Source of the DNA: Candidatus Avelusimicrobium intestinipullorum
Lineage (GTDB): Bacteria > Elusimicrobiota > Elusimicrobia > Elusimicrobiales > Elusimicrobiaceae
Length of the DNA: 64,000 nt
Reading direction: 5' to 3'
Assembly: GCA_944324635.1 (NCBI GenBank)
Contig: CALUXC010000005.1
Location: 4,691 to 68,690 of the forward strand
This document shows, in pieces, positions 12,649-22,042 of this stretch. The first letter of the stretch is position 1, and every line of letters begins with the position of its first letter. The position numbers were made by a program, and so were the translations under genes. A model generated the notes under the pieces. It did not search any database and had not been told where the DNA came from. It saw only the letters and a list, made by a program, of their open reading frames with translations.

Positions 12649-13743
12649 ATGAAAAAATTATTGTCTTTAACGCTTACTTGCGCGCTTTTATTAGCCTACG
12701 GCGCGCCGGCCCAGGCCTGCACGGGCATTTTGTTTGCCACGCAGGACGGTGCCAAACTGCAAGCCCGCACCATTGAGTGGGGTGGATTCTCGCTGGAGAG
12801 CAAACTGGTGATTATGCCCCGTGGGGGACAAAACACCTCGCTGACGCCGCAAGGTAAAAACGGCCTGTCTTGGAAAAACAAATACGGCGCGGTGGGCATT
12901 AGCGTGGTGCAGGACCCGTTTATCGGAGAAGGCGTAAACGAAAAAGGACTGGCCGCCGGGATTTTTTATTTTTCCGGTTACGGCAGCTTAGCGTCTTACA
13001 ATCCGAAGCGGGCCAAAAAATCCGTGGCGGACGTGGAACTGGTCCGCTGGCTGTTAACTAATTTTTCCACGGTGGAAGAAGCTATCAAAGGGCTTAAAAA
13101 AATAGACATTATCAGCATTTATCCTCCGCAGGAAGGGCAGCAGGACTCTTCTACCGGGCATTGGCGCATTTCCGACGCCACGGGCCGCAGCATTGTGCTG
13201 GAAATTGAAAACAACGGCCAACGCCATATTTACGAAAATACCGTTGGCGTGCTGACAAACTCTCCTTCTTTCCCGTGGCAGGTCACTCACCTTAACAACT
13301 ACGTCCACCTGCAGGCGGGCGGCGTGACGCCCCAAACCTACGGCAAAACCAAACTCTCCGCTTTTGGGGCCGGTGCCGGCATGTGGGGCCTGCCGGGGGA
13401 TATTACGCCTCCGTCCCGTTTTGTGCGGGCATTTTTCTACCTGCACACCGCGCCTACCGCTCCTACCGCACAGACGGGCGTATTGCAGGCCTTTCATATT
13501 TTGAACAACTTTGATATCCCCATTGGGGTGGAATTTGCCGCAGGCGAAAAAATACCGGATTTGCCCAGCGCCACCCAATGGACCAGCGTCACCGACATGA
13601 CACACCCCGCGTTTTATTACCGCACGATGAACAATAGCCAAATCCGAAAAGTGGATTTGAAAAAAATTGATTTTTCGTCGGTAAAAGCGCAGGCACTGCC
13701 GCTGGATAAAGAGCCGGAACAAATAGAAGAACTGACGTTTTAA
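12649..13743 (+). CDS. Choloylglycine hydrolase / penicillin V acylase family Ntn-hydrolase with signal peptide
   Basis: Signal peptide ending AQA followed by catalytic N-terminal CTG; ARTIEW, GVNEKGL, GVLTNSP, LPGDITPPSRF. Confidence 0.9.
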   Translation: MKKLLSLTLTCALLLAYGAPAQACTGILFATQDGAKLQARTIEWGGFSLESKLVIMPRGGQNTSLTPQGKNGLSWKNKYGAVGISVVQDPFIGEGVNEKGLAAGIFYFSGYGSLASYNPKRAKKSVADVELVRWLLTNFSTVEEAIKGLKKIDIISIYPPQEGQQDSSTGHWRISDATGRSIVLEIENNGQRHIYENTVGVLTNSPSFPWQVTHLNNYVHLQAGGVTPQTYGKTKLSAFGAGAGMWGLPGDITPPSRFVRAFFYLHTAPTAPTAQTGVLQAFHILNNFDIPIGVEFAAGEKIPDLPSATQWTSVTDMTHPAFYYRTMNNSQIRKVDLKKIDFSSVKAQALPLDKEPEQIEELTF

Positions 13744-13756
13744 CGGCACTTAAAAC

Positions 13757-13791
13757 AAAAAATCCTCCGCCTAACAAGCGGAGGATTTTTT
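13757..13791. terminator. Bidirectional intrinsic terminator
   Basis: AAAAAATCCTCCGC / GCGGAGGATTTTTT between convergent genes. Confidence 0.85.
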
Positions 13792-13808: not shown

Positions 13809-14813
13809 TTACAAATGCGCAATAACGGCTTGAGCAAACTCTTCGGTAGAAGCGTTTCCGCCCAAATCAAACGTCAGCGTTTTTCCTTCCTGCAACACGG
13901 CCGTCAGGGCCGCCTCTATCTGCTGGGCACGAGGCGTTTCCCCCAAGTGGCGAAGCATCAGGCACGCGCTAAGAAGAAGCGCCGTAGGGTTGGCTTTGTG
14001 CTGCCCTGCCAGCGTGGGACTGCTTCCGTGAACGGCTTCAAATACGGCCGCTTTTTGCCCGATATTAGCTCCCGGTGCAACACCCAATCCGCCCGTCAGT
14101 CCGGCCGCTAGGTCGGATACGATGTCCCCATACAAGTTAGGCAACACCAGCACGTCATAAATTTCGGGATTAATCACCAGCTGCATGCACAAGTTATCCA
14201 CCAACACTTCCTCATAGGCAACCTGCGGATAATCCTGCGCCACCCGGCGTACCGCTTCCAGAAAAAGACCGTCGGAAAATTTGCAAATATTGGCTTTGCT
14301 GACGGCCGTTACTTTGCGGCGGTTATTTTTAACGGCATATTCAAACGCGTAGCGCGCAATTCTTTCGGACGCACCGCGCGTAATGCGTTTAATGGATTCG
14401 GCGGTATCGTCATCAATTTTGCGTTCAATGCCGGCGTACAGATCTTCGGTATTTTCGCGCACGATCACCAAATCCACCTGCGAGTAGCGGCTTTTTACGC
14501 CCGGCAATGTTTTGGCGGGGCGCACACAGGCGTACAGGTCCAGCTCTTTGCGAAGGGCCACATTTACACTGCGAAAACCTTTCCCTATCGGCGTGGTGAT
14601 AGGACCTTTTAAGGCCACTTTATTTTTGGCGATGCTGTCCAACACCCGCTGCGGCAGAACAGAGCCTTCCGCTTCCAACACGGCCGCACCGGCGGCTTGT
14701 TCTTCCCAGCGAATGGGCGCGCCCGCCGCTTCCAACACGGAAACCACCGCACGGGTAATTTCGGGGCCGATCCCGTCGCCGGGAATTAACGTAACCATAT
14801 ATTCTTTCGTCAT
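13809..14813 (-). CDS. Isocitrate / homoisocitrate dehydrogenase (beta-decarboxylating dehydrogenase family)
   Basis: IPGDGIGPE, RSVNVALR (ICDH-type Ser/Asn), RENTEDLY, NLYGDIVSDL, FEAVHGSSP. Confidence 0.85.
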   Translation of the reverse strand: MTKEYMVTLIPGDGIGPEITRAVVSVLEAAGAPIRWEEQAAGAAVLEAEGSVLPQRVLDSIAKNKVALKGPITTPIGKGFRSVNVALRKELDLYACVRPAKTLPGVKSRYSQVDLVIVRENTEDLYAGIERKIDDDTAESIKRITRGASERIARYAFEYAVKNNRRKVTAVSKANICKFSDGLFLEAVRRVAQDYPQVAYEEVLVDNLCMQLVINPEIYDVLVLPNLYGDIVSDLAAGLTGGLGVAPGANIGQKAAVFEAVHGSSPTLAGQHKANPTALLLSACLMLRHLGETPRAQQIEAALTAVLQEGKTLTFDLGGNASTEEFAQAVIAHL

Positions 14814-15310
14814 ACCAAATCAAACCCGCCGTGTTTTTTGATGTGCGCCATCAGGCCGCCTTCGTTTAAGATTTTAATCATCACGTCCGGCAGGGGCGTA
14901 ACGGGGATATCAATTTTTTGCGTCAGGTTGTGCACCACACCGGCTTTCACGTCCACGGCCAGTTCGTCCCCCGCGTTGATTTTATCGGTATCACATTCCA
15001 CCAGCAACAGCCCGATATTGATGGCGTTGCGGAAGAAAATGCGCGCAAAACTTTTAGCCAGCACCGCATTCACGCCCGCCAGCTTAATGATGGTGGGAGC
15101 GTGTTCACGCGAAGAACCCAAACCAAAATTTTTCCCCGCTACCACAAAATCGCCTTTTTGCATGGAAGAAGCAAACGCCGGGTCGGCATCTTCCAGCACG
15201 TGTTTGGCCATTTCGGGCAAGTTGCTGCGCAAGTGGAACAAACGGCCGGGAGCGATATGGTCCGTACTGATATCGTCTCCAAATTTCCAAGCTTTTCCTT
15301 TCAATTCCAT
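14810..15310 (-). CDS. LeuD/HacB-type aconitase-family small subunit
   Basis: DDISTDHIAPG, HLRS specificity loop, NFGLGSSREHA, SFARIFFRN. Confidence 0.9.
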   Translation of the reverse strand: MELKGKAWKFGDDISTDHIAPGRLFHLRSNLPEMAKHVLEDADPAFASSMQKGDFVVAGKNFGLGSSREHAPTIIKLAGVNAVLAKSFARIFFRNAINIGLLLVECDTDKINAGDELAVDVKAGVVHNLTQKIDIPVTPLPDVMIKILNEGGLMAHIKKHGGFDLV

Positions 15311-15311
15311 A

Positions 15312-16568
15312 TTAAATAATCCCCCTGGGGTCGGTAATGTGTCCGCTCAGCGCGCTGGCAGCGGCCACGGCGGGACTGCACAAATAAATAAAACCTTTGG
15401 TGTTGCCCATGCGGCCTTGGAAATTGCGGTTCTGGGTGGAAAGGCACACTTCGCCGTCCCCCAAAATGCCGCCATGCACCCCTACGCAGGGGCCGCAGCC
15501 CGGCGTTTGGACAGAGGCGCCGCTCTGCACAAAAATTTCAATCAGGCCTTCTTTAAGCGCCTGCAACATCACATCGCGCGAGGCGGGCGTGATAAACAAA
15601 CGCACGCCGGGGGCCACCTTTTTGTCTTTCAAAATGGCCGCCGCAATGCGCAAATCTTCAATGCGCCCGTTGGTACAGGTGCCGATGTAAATTTGATTTA
15701 CTTTTACGTCCGCCAGTTCTTTGGCCTTTTGGACATTGTCCACTTTATGCGGGCAGGAAACCGTCGGCTCCAGGGAAGCGGCGTCTATTTCAATTACGCG
15801 CTCGTAAACGGCGCCTTCGTCCGCCTTTACTTCTTTGAATTTGTCGCCGCGGCCGTGTTCCTGCAGGTATTTTTTGGTCTTTTCGTCGGTAGCAATCAAT
15901 CCCGCCTTGGCGCCGGCTTCCACCGCCATGTTAGACAGGGTAAACCGATCCGCCATTTCCATATTTTCAATCGTATCGCCGCAAAATTCCAACGCTTTGT
16001 ACGTAGCGCCGTCCGCCCCGATTAATCCAATCAGGTGCAAGATTAAGTCCTTGGCGCCCACGCCCGGCTGGAATTTGCCCGTAACTTTAATTTGGAACGT
16101 AGCCGGCACTTTCAGCCAGGTTTTCCCTATCGCCATGCCGACGGCCACGTCCGTAGAGCCCATGCCGGTGGCAAACGCGCCCAACGCACCGGAAGTGCAG
16201 GTGTGCGAATCCGCCCCGATTAAAATTTCACCCGGGTTTACGTATTTTTCCACCAACAATTGGTGGCATACGCCTTCGCCAATTTCGGACAACACCGCCC
16301 CCGTGCGTTTGGCAAACTCACGCAGGACTACATGCGTGTTGGAAAGTTCCTTGCGCGGGCTGGGGGCAGCGTGATCAATAAATAAAATGGTGCGGGCCGG
16401 GTTCTTGACGGTTGTAAATCCGGCTTTTTCCAATTCGGCCACGGTCAAAGGGCCGGTTCCGTCCTGCACGGCGGTAACGTCCACGTCGGCCACGACGAAA
16501 TCTCCCGCGCGTACGGGCGCGGCGGTGTGCGCGGAAATAATTTTTTCCGCTAAGGTTTGTTTAAGCAT
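15312..16568 (-). CDS. LeuC/HacA-type aconitase-family large subunit
   Basis: GVCHQ, GADSHTCT, IGTCTNGRIEDL, PGCGPCVG, STQNRNFQGRMG. Confidence 0.9.
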   Translation of the reverse strand: MLKQTLAEKIISAHTAAPVRAGDFVVADVDVTAVQDGTGPLTVAELEKAGFTTVKNPARTILFIDHAAPSPRKELSNTHVVLREFAKRTGAVLSEIGEGVCHQLLVEKYVNPGEILIGADSHTCTSGALGAFATGMGSTDVAVGMAIGKTWLKVPATFQIKVTGKFQPGVGAKDLILHLIGLIGADGATYKALEFCGDTIENMEMADRFTLSNMAVEAGAKAGLIATDEKTKKYLQEHGRGDKFKEVKADEGAVYERVIEIDAASLEPTVSCPHKVDNVQKAKELADVKVNQIYIGTCTNGRIEDLRIAAAILKDKKVAPGVRLFITPASRDVMLQALKEGLIEIFVQSGASVQTPGCGPCVGVHGGILGDGEVCLSTQNRNFQGRMGNTKGFIYLCSPAVAAASALSGHITDPRGII

Positions 16569-17820
16569 TTTTTTGTTCTCCCAAATAATGCGGGGTAATG
16601 GTCATCACCTTGGCGGCAATGTCCGGATGATAATAAATAAAGCGCAGTTCGCTTTCTACCAGCGGCAGCTGGTTGTGCACGTTGGCATAGCGGACCAATT
16701 CCAAAATATCGCGCGCGTGCGCATCATTTTTGAATTCCAATTCCAGCTTTTCATATACGTTGCGGAAACCTTTAATCCCGCCGTATTCGCCGGTGGTAAT
16801 GACGCGGCCGGTTTCAATCACTTCCGGCTCGCCGCGGCCCAATTCTTCAAAATCGTACAGTTCATAATTGCGGCGGTCTTTCAAAGCGCCGTCGGCATGA
16901 ATGCCCGATTCGTGGGCAAAAGCGTTGCCCCCCACGGCAGGCTGGTTAATCGGTATCGGCACGCCAAACGCATACGAAGCATACTTGGCCAGCTGCCAGG
17001 CTTTATTTAAGCGGATATTGGGGTTAAGTTTATAGTCTTGCATGCCGCTTCCGTGTACAATGGCCAGCAGGCAGGAAACCAAATCCGCATTGCCGGCGCG
17101 TTCGCCCAAGCCGTTTACCGTGGTGTTGATAAACGCTTCCGAACCGCCGTCCACCGCGCCGCGGGCCCCCATAACGGAGTTGGCCACCGCCATACCCAAA
17201 TCGTTATGGCAATGCAGTTCAATGGCAATATGGGTGGCTTCGGCAATTTTGCGGATTCTGTCATAAATCACGTCGGGGGTATCGTACCCCAGCGTGTCGC
17301 AATAGCGAAAGCGCACCGCGCCCGCTTCTTTGGCGGCGGAGGCAAACTCTATTAAGAAATCCAAATCCGTGCGGGAAGCGTCTTCCGCGTTTACGCCCAC
17401 GCCCGACGCGCCTTTTTCTTTGGCCAGGCGCACGGCGCGCACGGCTTTATTCAAAATGTCTTTGCGGTTAAACTTACCGCCAAACTTGCCTGCCAGCATC
17501 TGGTCCGAGGTGGACATAGACAAGTTGCAATACTGTAATCCGGGAACATTTTTATATGCCAGTTCCACGTCTTCTTCCACCGCGCGCAGCCAGCCGCTTA
17601 AATGCGTTTTGTCTATCACGCCCTGCTGCACCAATTCCAAATTGGCATTCAAATAGTTGGTTTCGTGGTTCGTGGTCGGGAACCCAAATTCAGAAAAAGC
17701 CACCCCCAATTCGTTCAAATAATAGTTCAACATGGTTTTCTGCAATTTGGACAAACCCAAGCGGGAAGTTTGCACTCCGTCCCGGTTGGTTACGTCCACA
17801 ATCCAAATGGTATGCTTCAT
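16561..17820 (-). CDS. DRE-TIM acyltransferase (homocitrate-synthase-like), probably Re-citrate synthase
   Basis: DVTNRDGVQ variant of [46 protein letters not shown]; no LeuA regulatory domain. Confidence 0.7.
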
Positions 17821-17931
17821 ACGGCGGGTCCTCCAAAAACAGTTTTATATTCGTAGATTTTAGCATATTTGAACCGCCGTGCCGTCATACTTTTTTGACT
17901 GTTTCCCGACTGAGTTTTTCTCGCCGCCCAC

Positions 17932-17960
17932 AAAAAAGCACCCCGCTTTTGGCGGGGTGC
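17932..17960 (-). terminator. Intrinsic terminator after the PTS gene
   Basis: GCACCCCGC/GCGGGGTGC stem with U-tract on the minus strand. Confidence 0.75.
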
Positions 17961-17977
17961 CTAAAACGCTGACTCGT

Positions 17978-19690
17978 TTATTTTCCGCAGGCGCGTTTCT
18001 TATCCATATATTGCTGTAGCTTGGGTTTAATCACACTCACGACCGGGCCATACACTACCTGCACGGCATTCCCGTTCACAATTACGCCCAAGGCACCTGC
18101 TTTTTTAAGCAAAGCTTTGTCTATTTTGGAACTGTCCTGCACGTTTAAGCGCAGGCGGGTGGCGCAACATTCCGGGTTTTCCATGTTGTCTAAACCGCCC
18201 AATCCGGCAATGATGTTTTCCATTTGTTCGTCCCGCTCAAAGTGTTGCACGGGCTCGGCCGCATCACCGGTCTGCAGCGGTTGCTGGGCCGGGGTTTGCT
18301 CGGCAGACGGTGCCGTTTCCGCACGAGCGGCCTGCTTGGCTTGGAAGTCTTCTTTTGTATAGAGTTTGGTTTCCTGATCGTCGGCTTCGCGGCCGGGAGT
18401 AGGCAGGTTCCACTTCAAAATAACCCAGCGGAAAAAATAATAATACACCACAAAGTACACCGCAAAAATGGGCAGCAGGCGCACCCAATTGGTTTTATCG
18501 TTCCCCTGCATTACGCCATACAGCACATAATCAATCAGCCCGCAGGAGAAAGTGGTGCCGATAGTAATTTGGAACACATGCATAAGCACAAACGAAATGC
18601 CCGCAAATACACAATGCACCACATACAAAAGCGGCGCCACAAACAAAAACGTAAATTCAATCGGCTCCGTGATACCGGTTAAGAACGAGGTCAGCGCGGC
18701 CGAGAACAAAAGCCCGCCTACCAATTTGCGTTTGTTGGTTTTGGCCGTGTTGTACATCGCCAAAGCAGCCCCCATCAAGCCCCCCATCATAATGGCGTAT
18801 TTACCCGTCATAAACCGGGCGGCCTCTATGGCAAAATGCTGCGTATTGTGAGAAGCCAATTGAGCAAAGAAAATATTTTGCGCGCCATAGTACATGGTGC
18901 CGTCTATATTCATGGCACCGCCCAGGCCGGACTGCCAAAACGGCATATAGAACACGTGATGCAACCCAAACGGAATGAGCGCGCGTTCCATAAAGCCAAA
19001 AATAAAGGTGCCGTAATAACCCGTCTTAACCACCAGCGCACCGCTGGCCAAAATAAGCTTTTGAACAGGCGGCCACACATAAAAGCAAATCACGCCCAAC
19101 ACGATAGAGGCCAAGGTGCATATAATGGGCACAAAGCGAACCCCGCCAAAGAACGAAAAGACAACAGGCAATTCTATCCGATAAAAGCGGTTATGCAGGC
19201 AGGCCACTGCCAGCCCCACCAAAATACCGCCAAAGATACCCATCTCCAAAGTTTGAATACCAAGCGTAGTGCCGATGGTGCCGGAAATAACGTCCGCCGC
19301 CAATTTCCCGTCCGGCAGGACTTGCCCCGAAAACACCAGCAGTTCATGAATGGTCATATGCATGATGATAAAAGACAGCGCGGCCGACAACACCGCGACA
19401 GCCTTTTCCTCTTTGGCCATGCCCATGGCCACCGCCAAGGCAAACAGGAGCGGCAAATTGGCAAACACCGCATTGCCCACGGAACTCATCAGCAAAAACA
19501 CATGATTAAGCACCGTCCCCGCACCCATGATAGACTCCAACCCATACTGCTCAACCGTAGAGAGGTTGGAAAAAGAAGCGCCGATACCTAACAGCAACCC
19601 GGCAACGGGGAGAATAGATATCGGCAGAAAGAACGAACGTCCTATGGTTTGTATGACAGTAAGAATTTTATGATTATTAGATGAAGCCAT
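17978..19690 (-). CDS. PTS permease EIICB, glucose/maltose/GlcNAc family
   Basis: GRSFFLPISILPVAGLLLG, PFGLHH, GITEPIEF, EIIB motif CCATRLR. Confidence 0.9.
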   Translation of the reverse strand: MASSNNHKILTVIQTIGRSFFLPISILPVAGLLLGIGASFSNLSTVEQYGLESIMGAGTVLNHVFLLMSSVGNAVFANLPLLFALAVAMGMAKEEKAVAVLSAALSFIIMHMTIHELLVFSGQVLPDGKLAADVISGTIGTTLGIQTLEMGIFGGILVGLAVACLHNRFYRIELPVVFSFFGGVRFVPIICTLASIVLGVICFYVWPPVQKLILASGALVVKTGYYGTFIFGFMERALIPFGLHHVFYMPFWQSGLGGAMNIDGTMYYGAQNIFFAQLASHNTQHFAIEAARFMTGKYAIMMGGLMGAALAMYNTAKTNKRKLVGGLLFSAALTSFLTGITEPIEFTFLFVAPLLYVVHCVFAGISFVLMHVFQITIGTTFSCGLIDYVLYGVMQGNDKTNWVRLLPIFAVYFVVYYYFFRWVILKWNLPTPGREADDQETKLYTKEDFQAKQAARAETAPSAEQTPAQQPLQTGDAAEPVQHFERDEQMENIIAGLGGLDNMENPECCATRLRLNVQDSSKIDKALLKKAGALGVIVNGNAVQVVYGPVVSVIKPKLQQYMDKKRACGK

Positions 19691-19801: not shown

Positions 19802-22042
19802 TTAAGAAAGCGGTTTTGAGTCGGAGCCTTCTTCCTTAAGCAATTCTTCAAACTGGGCAGCAGGAACCGGGCGGGAGAAGAAGTACCCCTGTGCCAAATC
19901 GCACCCGGTATGGCGCAGGAAATCGGCCTGTTCGCGGGTTTCCACCCCTTCCGCCACGACTTGAATACCCAGCGACTTAATCATGGACACGGCCCCTTCT
20001 ATCACCTTGTGGGCATGCGGATTATTTTCAAACCCGCTTAAGAATTCTTTGTCCAATTTAATGCTGTCAAACTGCAAGTTTTTCAGTACGTTTAACGAAG
20101 AATAACCGGAACCAAAATCGTCCATCGCCACCGAGAAACCCATCTTGTGCAGACGGCTGATGACGTTCTGCGCGCGGTCCAAGTTATTAAAAATCACGCT
20201 TTCGGTCAGTTCCACTTCTATCATGTTATGCGGGACATCGTACTTGTCCACCACGCGCAGCATTTGCGGAATATAGCGCGTATCGTTTAAGTGCAAGCGG
20301 GAAAAATTGACCGCAATGGGCACTTGTTTCAGCCCTTTTACTTTCCACGCCGCAAGCAGGCGCACGGCCTCTTCCAAAATAAACATATCCAAGCGCAAGA
20401 TAAACCCGTTTTTCTCAAAAATAGGAATAAAATCATCGGGCTTTACAATGCCTTCTTCCAGTCTGTTCCAGCGCACCAGCGCTTCGGCCCCGCGCATTTG
20501 CCCGGTGGCAAAATCACACTTAGGCTGCAAAAAGACGGCAAAATCCCCATGCTCCAACGCCGTTTCCATTGTGTTTTCAATTTGCTTTTCGGCCACGATG
20601 CGTTTGCGGTCCGCTTCATCGTAAAAATCGCATTTGTCAAAGGCCATTTTTTTGGCGTTTTCCAGGGCCAGGTGAGCGCGGTCCAGCATAATATAGAAAG
20701 GAATATCCTCTTTAATTTCATACACGCCAAAAGCCACGTCAATCATCAGGCAGGAATCTTCCACCGTGCAGTCGCGGCGGAGCTGGGTGGTAAGGTTTTT
20801 TAAGCGGGCGCGGAAAGATTTCCGGTCGGTATATTTCCACAGCATGATGAAATTATCCGCCGTAGAGCGGCAGAAAGCTTCTTCGGGAGAAATGTTCTCG
20901 CGCAGGACGCGCGCCACGCGCTGCAGCACTTGGTTTCCGCGTTCATATCCGTGCAAGTCGTTAATTACTTTGAACTTATTGATATCAAAAATAATCAAAG
21001 CCGCCTGACCGTGCAAGCCGGCCAATTTTTCGGGGAATTGTTCGCACATGCGGTTAAAGTTATCCGCGCCCGTCAGCTGGTCCACAAACGCCGTGGCAAA
21101 AAGCTGGCGGTTGCTGTACGCGCGCATATGCAAAATATAGAAAATAAGCGCACTAAAAATAATAAATACCGACACAAACAGCAAAAAAGACAGCCACGTC
21201 AGGTGCTGGGCCTGGTGCGCCACATACGACGTGGGCAACGTGGAAATCATGTACCAGTCGTTAATCTGAAGCGGAATAAAATGCAAGAAAAGATGCCCCG
21301 CAGGGCCACGATAGCCAACCAAGGCGTGCTTGCCTGCCGCCACGGCCGCGCGCAAATCGGCCAACGTCATGGACCCGTCAAACGAAGCGTTGGCCAAAGC
21401 GTCAAAAATATTATCCGCCCGCATGGAACGGTAGCCCAACATCGGTACGCCGTCACGCCGAACGATTAACGAATACCCTTTATTTCCCATGGCAGAAAGA
21501 GCCAACAGCGGGCGATAGCGCTGAGGCTGCTGCAAGGCAAAGAGCGCCCCGATCGGGCGGCCGCGGCGCGTGAGCACGGTGGATTGAACAAGCACGTCCT
21601 CCCCGTCGGCCGGGTCGGCCTGGCGGACGGAAAGGTAGCGGCCTTCTTCCAAGGTGCGGGTCAATACGTCCGTTACGAATATGGGGTTGAAATCGCGCGG
21701 CGAAGACAGAAACACCGTTCCGTCCGTCGTAATGACGCCTAACGATTTGAAATAGTTGTGTTGCGTTTGGCGGCGCAAGAATTCGGTAAGCTGGGCGGAA
21801 TCCGTCCACGGATAGGTATCTTCCACCGTAATGGCGATGGATTCCAGAACTTGTTGGTCGGTTAAGATTAAGCGGTTAAAGTCGGCAGCGGCTTCTTCGC
21901 CGGCGGCAGCCACATGGGTTTTTACGTCCCGTTCCAAGATGCCTCTTACTTGTTGCCAATACAGCACCACGCCCGTGGCGATAACGGCCGCCGCGACCAT
22001 AAAAAATACTATAAACGAGCGGAACGAAATACGCTGCACCAA
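19802..22042 (-). CDS. Cache-sensor / degenerate GGDEF / EAL c-di-GMP phosphodiesterase
   Basis: Two TM helices around a Cache-like domain; GGDEF site reads STADN; EAL domain has EALVRW, DDFGSGYSS, EGVE. Confidence 0.85.
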   Translation of the reverse strand: MVQRISFRSFIVFFMVAAAVIATGVVLYWQQVRGILERDVKTHVAAAGEEAAADFNRLILTDQQVLESIAITVEDTYPWTDSAQLTEFLRRQTQHNYFKSLGVITTDGTVFLSSPRDFNPIFVTDVLTRTLEEGRYLSVRQADPADGEDVLVQSTVLTRRGRPIGALFALQQPQRYRPLLALSAMGNKGYSLIVRRDGVPMLGYRSMRADNIFDALANASFDGSMTLADLRAAVAAGKHALVGYRGPAGHLFLHFIPLQINDWYMISTLPTSYVAHQAQHLTWLSFLLFVSVFIIFSALIFYILHMRAYSNRQLFATAFVDQLTGADNFNRMCEQFPEKLAGLHGQAALIIFDINKFKVINDLHGYERGNQVLQRVARVLRENISPEEAFCRSTADNFIMLWKYTDRKSFRARLKNLTTQLRRDCTVEDSCLMIDVAFGVYEIKEDIPFYIMLDRAHLALENAKKMAFDKCDFYDEADRKRIVAEKQIENTMETALEHGDFAVFLQPKCDFATGQMRGAEALVRWNRLEEGIVKPDDFIPIFEKNGFILRLDMFILEEAVRLLAAWKVKGLKQVPIAVNFSRLHLNDTRYIPQMLRVVDKYDVPHNMIEVELTESVIFNNLDRAQNVISRLHKMGFSVAMDDFGSGYSSLNVLKNLQFDSIKLDKEFLSGFENNPHAHKVIEGAVSMIKSLGIQVVAEGVETREQADFLRHTGCDLAQGYFFSRPVPAAQFEELLKEEGSDSKPLS

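What the first reader, a model, noticed from the sequence alone, without database searches (positions are those of the whole stretch)
13809..17820. A 'leu/nifV-like' operon that probably encodes a Re-citrate route to 2-oxoglutarate
Seen: synthase, large subunit, small subunit and dehydrogenase overlap or nearly abut. Three signatures point to tricarboxylates rather than isopropylmalate. (i) The small-subunit loop is HLRS, keeping the Arg of the homoaconitase YLRT loop (isopropylmalate isomerase has YLVY). (ii) The dehydrogenase has the ICDH-type SVNVALR. (iii) The synthase lacks the LeuA regulatory domain and starts [18 protein letters not shown], which from memory closely resembles the Dehalococcoides Re-citrate synthase. 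No lysW/lysX or ilv genes are nearby. The cofactor loop HGSSPTLAG has neither the NAD-type Asp nor the NADP-type Lys-Tyr. Inference: a self-contained glutamate-precursor operon using a LeuCD-type aconitase; the alternative is homocitrate to 2-oxoadipate.
Basis: partly seen in the sequence, partly recalled or inferred. Interest (0 to 1): 0.6.

Follow-up and report, generated by a model that had tools for sequence, protein, structure and literature searches.

The report
Re-citrate operon of gut Elusimicrobium
Four adjacent genes in a small chicken-gut bacterium look like leucine or lysine genes but most likely make 2-oxoglutarate, the precursor of glutamate, through citrate; the same operon in the cultured relative Elusimicrobium minutum was already annotated this way, so this is another example of a known solution and not a new pathway.

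Summary
Observation confirmed: four intact, tightly coupled minus-strand genes (synthase, large and small dehydratase subunits, dehydrogenase) in an Elusimicrobiaceae genome found in chicken-gut metagenomes. The synthase is 59% identical to the Dehalococcoides mccartyi protein taken to be its Re-citrate synthase and groups with it (SH-aLRT 100), apart from NifV and LeuA. In relatives the fourth gene of this operon is swapped for an unambiguous NADP-isocitrate dehydrogenase, and other relatives carry aconitase + IDH + ATP-citrate lyase in its place. The small-subunit loop (TDHI..G..RSN) matches true aconitases (Arg580 position) better than homoaconitase. The genome shows no other citrate synthase, aconitase or IDH, no ilvC/ilvD, lysW/lysX or nitrogenase, and has lysA and dapF. 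It is not new: GenBank already names the E. minutum orthologues 'putative aconitase', '(re) citrate synthase' (on the wrong gene) and 'isocitrate dehydrogenase (NAD+)', and this scan noted similar operons in at least 17 other genomes. No enzyme was assayed. Still open: whether the two-subunit enzyme is a true aconitase (I found no assay) and which cofactor the Asp-less IDH uses.

The parts
16561..17820 (-). DRE-TIM acyl-CoA condensing enzyme, 419 aa; probable Dehalococcoides-type Re-citrate synthase (D9, R13-D14, Q17, E146, H203-x-H205)
   Evidence: Pfam HMGL-like + HCS_D2; below every NCBIfam cut-off, best NifV 264.6 vs 462.9; 59% identical to D. mccartyi AII61599.1; clade with it, SH-aLRT 100
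15312..16568 (-). Large (Fe-S) subunit of a two-subunit aconitase-family hydro-lyase, 418 aa; Cys298, Cys358, Cys361 present; probable aconitase large subunit
   Evidence: PF00330; over cut-off only for broad subfamily models PRK00402, hacA_fam, IPMI_arch; below the LEU2 (477/610) and HacA (487/550) equivalogs; only aconitase-family gene found in the genome
14810..15310 (-). Small subunit, 166 aa; TDHIAPGRLFHLRSNL loop (Arg28) and GSSRE motif; probable aconitase small subunit
   Evidence: Loop aligns to TDHIMPAGARLKYRSNV of single-chain PRK07229 aconitases and through them to TDHISAAGPWLKFRGHL (Arg580) of mitochondrial aconitase 1ACO; Arg28 kept in 120 of 120 homologues; below leuD and HacB equivalog cut-offs
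13809..14813 (-). Short type I isocitrate dehydrogenase (mitochondrial NAD-IDH-like group), 334 aa; S82-x-N84 substrate motif; cofactor loop Thr267-Leu268...Ala274
   Evidence: Best PDB matches Xanthomonas IDH 6LTF/6M3S (371 bits) and human IDH3 alpha (362), against HICDH 281 and IPMDH 260 or less; best NCBIfam PRK08997 IDH 446.9/510 and mito NAD-IDH 424.9/432.4
17829..17834 (-). GGAGGA ribosome-binding site 8 nt before the synthase ATG
   Evidence: read from the sequence
17857..17865 (-). Candidate extended -10 element TGCTAAAAT; the operon probably has its own promoter
   Evidence: read by eye; not listed by the consensus scan; inference only
17936..17962 (-). Terminator-like hairpin (11 pairs + T run) directly after the upstream PTS gene, separating it from the operon
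   Evidence: the region as a whole has no more such sites than shuffles: 10 vs 9.2; position and stem length make this one plausible; fold -26.6 kcal/mol
13757..13791 (.). 14-bp A/T-flanked hairpin between the dehydrogenase and the convergent hydrolase gene; probable bidirectional terminator
   Evidence: fold -24.6 kcal/mol for the 64-nt stretch; no shuffle control run

Best explanation
The operon is the organism's stand-alone oxidative TCA branch. (1) The synthase condenses acetyl-CoA with oxaloacetate to citrate, with Re stereochemistry. (2) The large and small subunits form a [4Fe-4S] heterodimeric aconitase that converts citrate to isocitrate. (3) The dehydrogenase oxidises isocitrate to 2-oxoglutarate + CO2. 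Oxaloacetate can come from ATP-dependent PEP carboxykinase, aspartate aminotransferase or a PYC/OadA-type carboxyltransferase encoded elsewhere; NADP-type GdhA can turn 2-oxoglutarate into glutamate. Shown: gene structure, families, orthology, gene context, presence or absence of other pathways. Inferred: every substrate, the stereochemistry, heterodimer formation, co-transcription and flux direction.
For: Synthase 59% identical, full length, to the D. mccartyi 415-aa protein, against 34-38% to NifV-like and 28% to LeuA; a long, fully supported branch separates this clade from NifV/LeuA. In E. posterum and G024 the same synthase-large-small genes are followed by a type II NADP-IDH over the PRK08299 and TIGR00127 cut-offs, and E. 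posterum has a separate leuA-C-D-B operon. Of 61 family genomes, the same 19 carry an aconitase-family gene and an IDH; 7 have this synthase with the two-subunit enzyme and 12 have single-chain aconitase + IDH + ATP-citrate lyase. Small-subunit loop is aconitase-like. In other Elusimicrobiota the synthase lies next to PEP carboxykinase or an aspartate-aminotransferase-like gene, both linked to oxaloacetate. In an Omnitrophota genome with this synthase clade a two-subunit enzyme lies beside IDH and malate dehydrogenase. No competing pathway found in the genome; lysA, dapF, GdhA, PEPCK present. GenBank annotation of E. minutum orthologues; PMC4720418 assayed the D. mccartyi IDH that lies beside 'aconitase large and small subunit' genes.
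Against: No enzyme of this operon has been assayed. That the fetched D. mccartyi protein is the orthologue of the assayed cbdbA1708 rests on my knowledge, its 'homocitrate synthase' label and an earlier scan note; the original paper was not held. 59% identity does not fix specificity in the DRE-TIM family. By overall score the two subunits are nearest to M. jannaschii isopropylmalate/citramalate isomerase. The dehydrogenase is just below the IDH equivalog cut-offs. The genome is 92.6% complete. GDH is in 57 of 61 family genomes, with or without the operon, so it does not discriminate. Non-overlap of synthase and ACL alone is not significant (p = 0.23) and kin are not independent.
Confidence: 0.9

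Rival explanations
1. Homocitrate route: 2-oxoglutarate + acetyl-CoA to homocitrate, homoisocitrate and 2-oxoadipate, for lysine (aminoadipate pathway), a nitrogenase cofactor or a longer 2-oxoacid product.
For: Best NCBIfam model for the synthase is NifV and databases call it homocitrate synthase; the large subunit passes the hacA_fam subfamily cut-off; a 2026 paper still calls DET1614 'nifV' (PMC13390414); some homoisocitrate dehydrogenases also accept isocitrate (own knowledge).
Against: NifV score is 200 bits under the cut-off, as is that of the D. mccartyi protein; no lysW, lysX or nitrogenase found; lysA and dapF present; no other source of 2-oxoglutarate backbone found; S-x-N motif; in kin the fourth gene is a type II NADP-IDH.
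Confidence: 0.04
2. Leucine (2-isopropylmalate) or citramalate/isoleucine chain elongation.
For: Both subunits score best against M. jannaschii isopropylmalate/citramalate isomerase structures; databases label them leuC/leuD.
Against: No ilvC or ilvD found, so no 2-oxoisovalerate synthesis; leuB model 216 vs cut-off 353; E. posterum keeps this operon beside a separate complete leu operon; loop has Arg, not the hydrophobic LeuD residues.
Confidence: 0.02
3. Citrate chemistry is right but the enzymes are broad-specificity, or the main use is not glutamate synthesis (for example supplying 2-oxoglutarate as amino acceptor or NAD(P)H during amino-acid fermentation).
For: Only 5 of 44 genus genomes sampled carry the synthase, so it is dispensable in the gut; the cofactor loop has lost its Asp in all 71 close homologues; E. 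minutum ferments amino acids through 2-oxoacids (PMC11257099).
Against: No direct evidence; strong conservation of the small-subunit loop and synthase motif fits a single tight specificity.
Confidence: 0.04

Closest known systems
Elusimicrobium minutum Pei191 operon, CP001055.1 (ACC97958.1-ACC97961.1)
   Same: Same four genes, same order; 71, 82, 87 and 64% identity. GenBank names: pyruvate carboxyltransferase family protein; putative aconitase; (re) citrate synthase; isocitrate dehydrogenase (NAD+).
   Different: Different flanking genes. Its IDH keeps the NAD-type HGSSPDIAG. The '(re) citrate synthase' label sits on the small subunit and belongs on ACC97958.1. Annotation only; I found no assay.
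Dehalococcoides mccartyi Re-citrate synthase (cbdbA1708/DET1614 type; Marco-Urrea et al. 2011, cited via PMC12016533 and PMC4720418) with the DET0450 IDH operon
   Same: Synthase 59% identical over 408 aa, shared [10 protein letters not shown] and N-x-S-x-STS motifs and C-terminal extension; same clade. D. mccartyi also has annotated aconitase large and small subunit genes beside an assayed IDH.
   Different: There the synthase stands alone, far from the aconitase-IDH genes, and the IDH is NADP-preferring. I could not fetch the D. mccartyi aconitase subunits for comparison.
Other Re-citrate synthases: Clostridium kluyveri / Syntrophus aciditrophicus type, and Heliomicrobium HM1_2993 / C. difficile type
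   Same: Same reaction and DRE-TIM superfamily; also routinely mislabelled homocitrate or isopropylmalate synthase (PMC12016533).
   Different: Separate clades: HM1_2993 is about 36% identical to the Dehalococcoides enzyme and 28% to the C. kluyveri and Syntrophus ones. Not compared directly here.
Methanocaldococcus jannaschii homoaconitase (4KP2/2PKP) and isopropylmalate/citramalate isomerase (4KP1/3VBA)
   Same: Two-subunit architecture; best structural-sequence matches.
   Different: Small-subunit recognition loop is 1-2 residues longer and reads TDHI..G..RSN as in single-chain aconitases; below the HacA, HacB, LEU2 and leuD equivalog cut-offs.
Xanthomonas campestris IDH (6LTF, 6M3S) and mitochondrial NAD-IDH alpha subunit
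   Same: Same short type I IDH group; S-x-N motif and catalytic residues.
   Different: Asp-Ile of the cofactor loop replaced by Thr-Leu (Ala-Leu in most close kin) while Ala274 is kept.

Membership tests
Re-citrate synthase, Dehalococcoides clade (EC 2.3.3.3) | DRE-TIM domain with D-R-E catalytic and H-x-H metal motifs | tested here: met
   PF00682; R13, D14, E146, H203, H205 invariant in alignment
Re-citrate synthase, Dehalococcoides clade (EC 2.3.3.3) | Orthology to the D. mccartyi enzyme, apart from NifV/LeuA/CimA | tested here: met
59% identity; clade SH-aLRT 100 on a 1.19 branch in a quick IQ-TREE run without bootstrap.
Re-citrate synthase, Dehalococcoides clade (EC 2.3.3.3) | Host lacks Si-citrate synthase but has aconitase and IDH | tested here: met
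   PF00285 not found (genome 92.6% complete); none of the 7 synthase genomes has it
Re-citrate synthase, Dehalococcoides clade (EC 2.3.3.3) | Citrate formed from oxaloacetate + acetyl-CoA with Re stereochemistry | not testable with these tools
   needs enzyme assay and 13C labelling
Homocitrate synthase NifV / LysS-AksA | Score over TIGR02660 or TIGR02146 cut-off | tested here: not met
   264.6/462.9 and 192/413.55
Homocitrate synthase NifV / LysS-AksA | nif genes or LysW-dependent lysine pathway in the genome | tested here: not met
Leucine operon leuABCD | LeuA and LeuB equivalog scores; ilvC/ilvD supply | tested here: not met
   leuA 188.5/598.7, leuB 216.3/353.2; ilvD and ilvC not found
Aconitase (EC 4.2.1.3) | Three Fe-S cysteines, DSHT and GSSRE motifs | tested here: met
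   shared by the whole superfamily, so not specific
Aconitase (EC 4.2.1.3) | Arg at the mitochondrial Arg580 position after TDHI | tested here: met
   Arg28 aligns with it with one gap; the role of Arg580 in binding the third carboxylate is own knowledge
Aconitase (EC 4.2.1.3) | Membership of a described single-chain subfamily (AcnA, AcnB, mitochondrial, PRK07229) | tested here: not met
   two chains; PRK07229 403.5/612. PMC8184944 lists two-chain forms only for HACN, IPMI and AcnX type II. It likely works like an aconitase without being in those subfamilies.
Aconitase (EC 4.2.1.3) | Citrate/isocitrate interconversion | not testable with these tools
   needs anaerobic reconstitution and assay
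Type I isocitrate dehydrogenase | S-x-N-x-x-x-R substrate motif and nearest solved relatives are IDHs | tested here: met
Type I isocitrate dehydrogenase | Score over an IDH equivalog cut-off | tested here: inconclusive
   424.9/432.4 (TIGR00175), 446.9/510 (PRK08997); still far above HICDH and IPMDH models
NAD-specific IDH (Asp-Ile-Ala) or NADP-specific IDH (Lys-Tyr-Val) | Cofactor determinants as defined in PMC5397045 | tested here: not met
   Thr267-Leu268-Ala274: neither set; cofactor unresolved

The most novel reading that the evidence does not exclude
The large/small pair is a real two-subunit aconitase of a subfamily that has been annotated but, as far as I could find, never assayed; its small-subunit loop keeps the TDHI...RSN signature of single-chain aconitases, which gives a sequence rule for telling such enzymes from LeuCD/HacAB. 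In addition the IDH of this genus has lost the NAD-selecting Asp without gaining Lys-Tyr and may use both NAD and NADP. The cultured E. minutum carries the operon, so the aconitase question is directly testable.
Probability: 0.6. Interest if true: 0.45.

Novelty: new member of a known kind. Interest (0 to 1): 0.27.

Why it matters
It corrects four database labels (homocitrate synthase, leuC, leuD, isocitrate/isopropylmalate dehydrogenase) that would wrongly give these gut bacteria leucine or lysine genes and hide their route to glutamate. It suggests that Elusimicrobiaceae use two interchangeable modules (7 and 12 of 61 genomes) and that most gut members carry neither and would need glutamate or 2-oxoglutarate from outside. 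It points to a cultured organism in which a two-subunit aconitase can be tested. It does not reveal a new pathway.

Tried and rejected
Herlemann 2009, Marco-Urrea 2011, Li 2007 and Kim 2013 are not held; their content is cited only through other papers or database names. A search for 'cbdbA1708' found no paper, and the CBDB1 proteome supplement held nothing. D. mccartyi could not be searched as a genome, so its aconitase subunits were not compared. The AlphaFold model of the dehydrogenase was mediocre (pLDDT 71, 8 sequences) and was not used. The ESM Atlas returned only 'homocitrate synthase' labels. The careful tree did not finish; the quick tree is reported. Mutual exclusion of synthase and ACL is not significant by itself (p = 0.23). 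GDH presence does not discriminate. One RNA run has short near-identical contigs over three of the genes, but also over the neighbouring PTS gene, and contigs cannot show transcription: no claim made. An apparent aconitase-IDH fusion in G015 is a scaffold N gap. Recent horizontal gain is not supported by composition (GC3 0.59-0.65 vs genome 0.59 +/- 0.08) and flanking genes are shared within the genus; gain versus loss was not resolved. The weak LysX hit is AccC. No complex prediction was run: a large/small pair would pass by likeness to known structures.
Full report
Observation. Junctions are an 8-nt overlap, a 1-nt gap and an ATGA overlap. A hairpin with a T run follows the upstream PTS gene (17962-17936) and a 14-bp hairpin lies between the dehydrogenase and the convergent hydrolase gene (13791-13757). 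A GGAGGA precedes the first ATG. The block therefore looks like a self-contained operon; co-transcription is inferred. All quoted motifs are exact.

Host. The genome has 1.57 Mb in 9 contigs, 92.6% complete. The closest named loci are uncultured Elusimicrobiales, and Elusimicrobium minutum and E. posterum fall in the same family sample by size, coordinates and protein match. The DNA is held by chicken-gut and bird metagenomes. The genus is probably Ca. Avelusimicrobium (inference, not tested).

Synthase. It is a DRE-TIM enzyme below every NCBIfam cut-off; the best model is NifV at 264.6 against 462.9. To test the remembered resemblance I scanned metagenomes with a short degenerate pattern, read the one matching gene from the tool, and looked it up by identity: it is a 415-aa Dehalococcoides mccartyi protein labelled homocitrate synthase (AII61599.1 and others). 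It lies alone near the end of the chromosome. The window protein is 59% identical to it over 408 aa, against 34-38% to NifV-like proteins and 28% to LeuA. In a quick maximum-likelihood tree both sit in one clade with SH-aLRT 100 on a long branch, apart from proteins that pass the NifV cut-off or are LeuA-like. That this D. mccartyi protein is the orthologue of the assayed Re-citrate synthase cbdbA1708 rests on my knowledge and an earlier scan note; PMC12016533 confirms that the Dehalococcoides enzyme is characterised and that such genes are often mislabelled homocitrate or isopropylmalate synthase. Absence of the regulatory domain proves nothing: the LeuA-type gene of the E. posterum leu operon is also short.

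Dehydratase. Both subunits score best against M. jannaschii isopropylmalate/citramalate isomerase and homoaconitase but pass only broad subfamily models. The small-subunit loop is the recognised specificity region (PMC7308503). A better match is to true aconitases: TDHIAP-GRLFHLRSNL aligns with TDHIMPAGARLKYRSNV of the PRK07229 aconitases of relatives, which aligns with TDHISAAGPWLKFRGHL of mitochondrial aconitase, placing Arg28 at Arg580. Arg28 is kept in all 120 nearest homologues. This is the only aconitase-family gene found in the genome.

Dehydrogenase. Nearest solved structures are Xanthomonas IDH and human NAD-IDH alpha (371 and 362 bits), ahead of homoisocitrate (281) and isopropylmalate dehydrogenases (260 or less). 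S82-x-N84 is the isocitrate-type motif. The three cofactor determinants (Asp-Ile-Ala for NAD, Lys-Tyr-Val for NADP; PMC5397045) read Thr267-Leu268-Ala274. None of the 71 homologues at 82% identity or more has the Asp (58 Ala-Leu in ALAG, 7 Thr-Leu), nor do 12 of 49 more distant ones, while E. minutum has HGSSPDIAG. It is an NAD-type scaffold without the residue that excludes NADP; relaxed specificity is a guess.

Genome context. Not found, with positive controls ringing: Si-citrate synthase, IlvD (11), IlvC (121), LysX (31; 0 of 61 family genomes, 100), LysW (120), nitrogenase (34). No paralogue of any of the four genes, no type II IDH and no ACL or succinyl-CoA synthetase alpha by tblastn. 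Found: lysA over cut-off next to an aspartate kinase, dapF, NADP-type GdhA, ATP-PEP carboxykinase next to an aspartate-aminotransferase-like gene and a PYC/OadA-domain protein (87). Lysine thus has its own route, leucine has no precursor supply, and oxaloacetate is available. The genome is incomplete, so absences are 'not found'.

Comparative evidence. In 61 family genomes the same 19 have an aconitase-family gene and an IDH over cut-off. Seven carry this synthase with the two-subunit enzyme; twelve carry single-chain aconitase, type II NADP-IDH and ATP-citrate lyase in one block. In E. posterum and G024 the synthase and both subunits (69-70, 79, 85% identical where measured) are followed by a type II NADP-IDH over its equivalog cut-offs; G003 and G018 show the start of the same gene at a contig end. 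E. posterum also has a separate leu operon. An isocitrate dehydrogenase from another family taking the fourth place is the strongest sign that the upstream product is isocitrate. In other Elusimicrobiota the synthase neighbours GTP-PEP carboxykinase or an aspartate-aminotransferase-like gene. Caveats: kin are not independent, non-overlap alone gives p = 0.23, and GDH is nearly universal in the family. Only 5 of 44 genus genomes sampled have the synthase.

Mechanism. Acetyl-CoA + oxaloacetate to citrate (Re), citrate to isocitrate by a heterodimeric [4Fe-4S] enzyme, isocitrate to 2-oxoglutarate + CO2 + NAD(P)H, then glutamate by GdhA. Confidence 0.9 for citrate chemistry; every substrate assignment is inferred. 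Rivals: homocitrate/2-oxoadipate 0.04, leucine/citramalate 0.02, broad or non-biosynthetic use 0.04.

What is known. GenBank names the E. minutum orthologues 'putative aconitase' (ACC97959.1), '(re) Citrate synthase' (ACC97960.1, which is really the small subunit) and 'isocitrate dehydrogenase (NAD+)' (ACC97961.1), so the reading was on record with that genome. PMC11257099 reports putative Re-type citrate synthases across Endomicrobiaceae, PMC8542988 in Omnitrophota, and PMC4720418 an operon with aconitase large and small subunits beside an assayed IDH in D. mccartyi. This scan holds at least 17 similar notes on other genomes; they are leads, not support. I found no paper that assays a two-subunit aconitase, but the library lacks most subscription papers.

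Verdict. Real, correctly read, and a new member of a known kind. Interest 0.27. What remains worth doing is the assay of the two-subunit aconitase, for which E. minutum is a cultured host, and of the cofactor use of the Asp-less IDH.

Noticed in passing
E. minutum CP001055.1, L001:10539-11033 and L001:8001-9251: GenBank puts the name '(re) Citrate synthase' on the small dehydratase subunit ACC97960.1; the real synthase ACC97958.1 is named 'pyruvate carboxyltransferase family protein'.
   Followed up: yes
L089-L098, L104, L145, L146 (Elusimicrobiaceae genomes G002, G006, G008, G009, G010, G012, G015, G016, G021, G045, G051, G055): Block of single-chain aconitase, type II NADP-IDH and ATP-citrate lyase (two subunits) in small fermentative bacteria; ACL may run towards citrate synthesis there, or serve citrate or glutamate breakdown. 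Direction not tested.
   Followed up: partly
genus and family samples: 42 of 61 family genomes show no aconitase-family gene and no IDH although GDH is nearly universal: probable dependence on external glutamate or 2-oxoglutarate.
   Followed up: partly
L009-L082 (Gastranaerophilales), L135:8607-9101, L137:8984-9511: In Gastranaerophilales the same module (about 70% identity) is often scattered: synthase and large subunit lie close with inserted genes (often one starting MGMAASQAR), and the small subunit lies near rpsL/rpsG. A few genomes keep the four-gene operon (L018, L031, L032).
   Followed up: partly
L105:2115-3362; PMC13390414: A 2026 paper still describes Dehalococcoides DET1614 as a distally located nifV; by my knowledge this is the Re-citrate synthase orthologue.
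   Followed up: no
L107:4161-8837 (E. posterum): Separate leuA-leuC-leuD-leuB operon with a short 401-aa LeuA lacking the regulatory domain, followed by an acyl-CoA synthetase; may elongate 2-oxoacids from scavenged branched-chain precursors.
   Followed up: partly
G000:C3:167277-169267 (L085:1402-3392): lysA is followed by a 242-aa aspartate kinase that has only the catalytic domain (no ACT regulatory part in that ORF).
   Followed up: no
L136:3967-10044 (Omnitrophota, G063): Aminotransferase, two-subunit dehydratase, NADP-type IDH (HGSAPKYAG) and malate dehydrogenase in one block; its small-subunit loop (TDFIISGRYKFS) lacks the RSN motif, so that motif is not universal for IDH-adjacent pairs.
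   Followed up: partly
window 12649-13743 (+), 17978-19690 (-), 19802-22042 (-): Neighbours: a choloylglycine-hydrolase/penicillin-V-acylase family protein with an N-terminal leader, a glucose/maltose-type PTS IIBC, and a membrane GGDEF/EAL-like protein. The PTS gene is beside the operon in only one of seven close relatives.
   Followed up: partly
P0428: A 517-aa record joins this dehydrogenase to a pilin N-methylation motif (PF07963); probably read-through or an assembly error.
   Followed up: no
L145 (G015:C104): Apparent 1071-aa aconitase-IDH fusion is an artefact of an N gap in the scaffold.
   Followed up: yes
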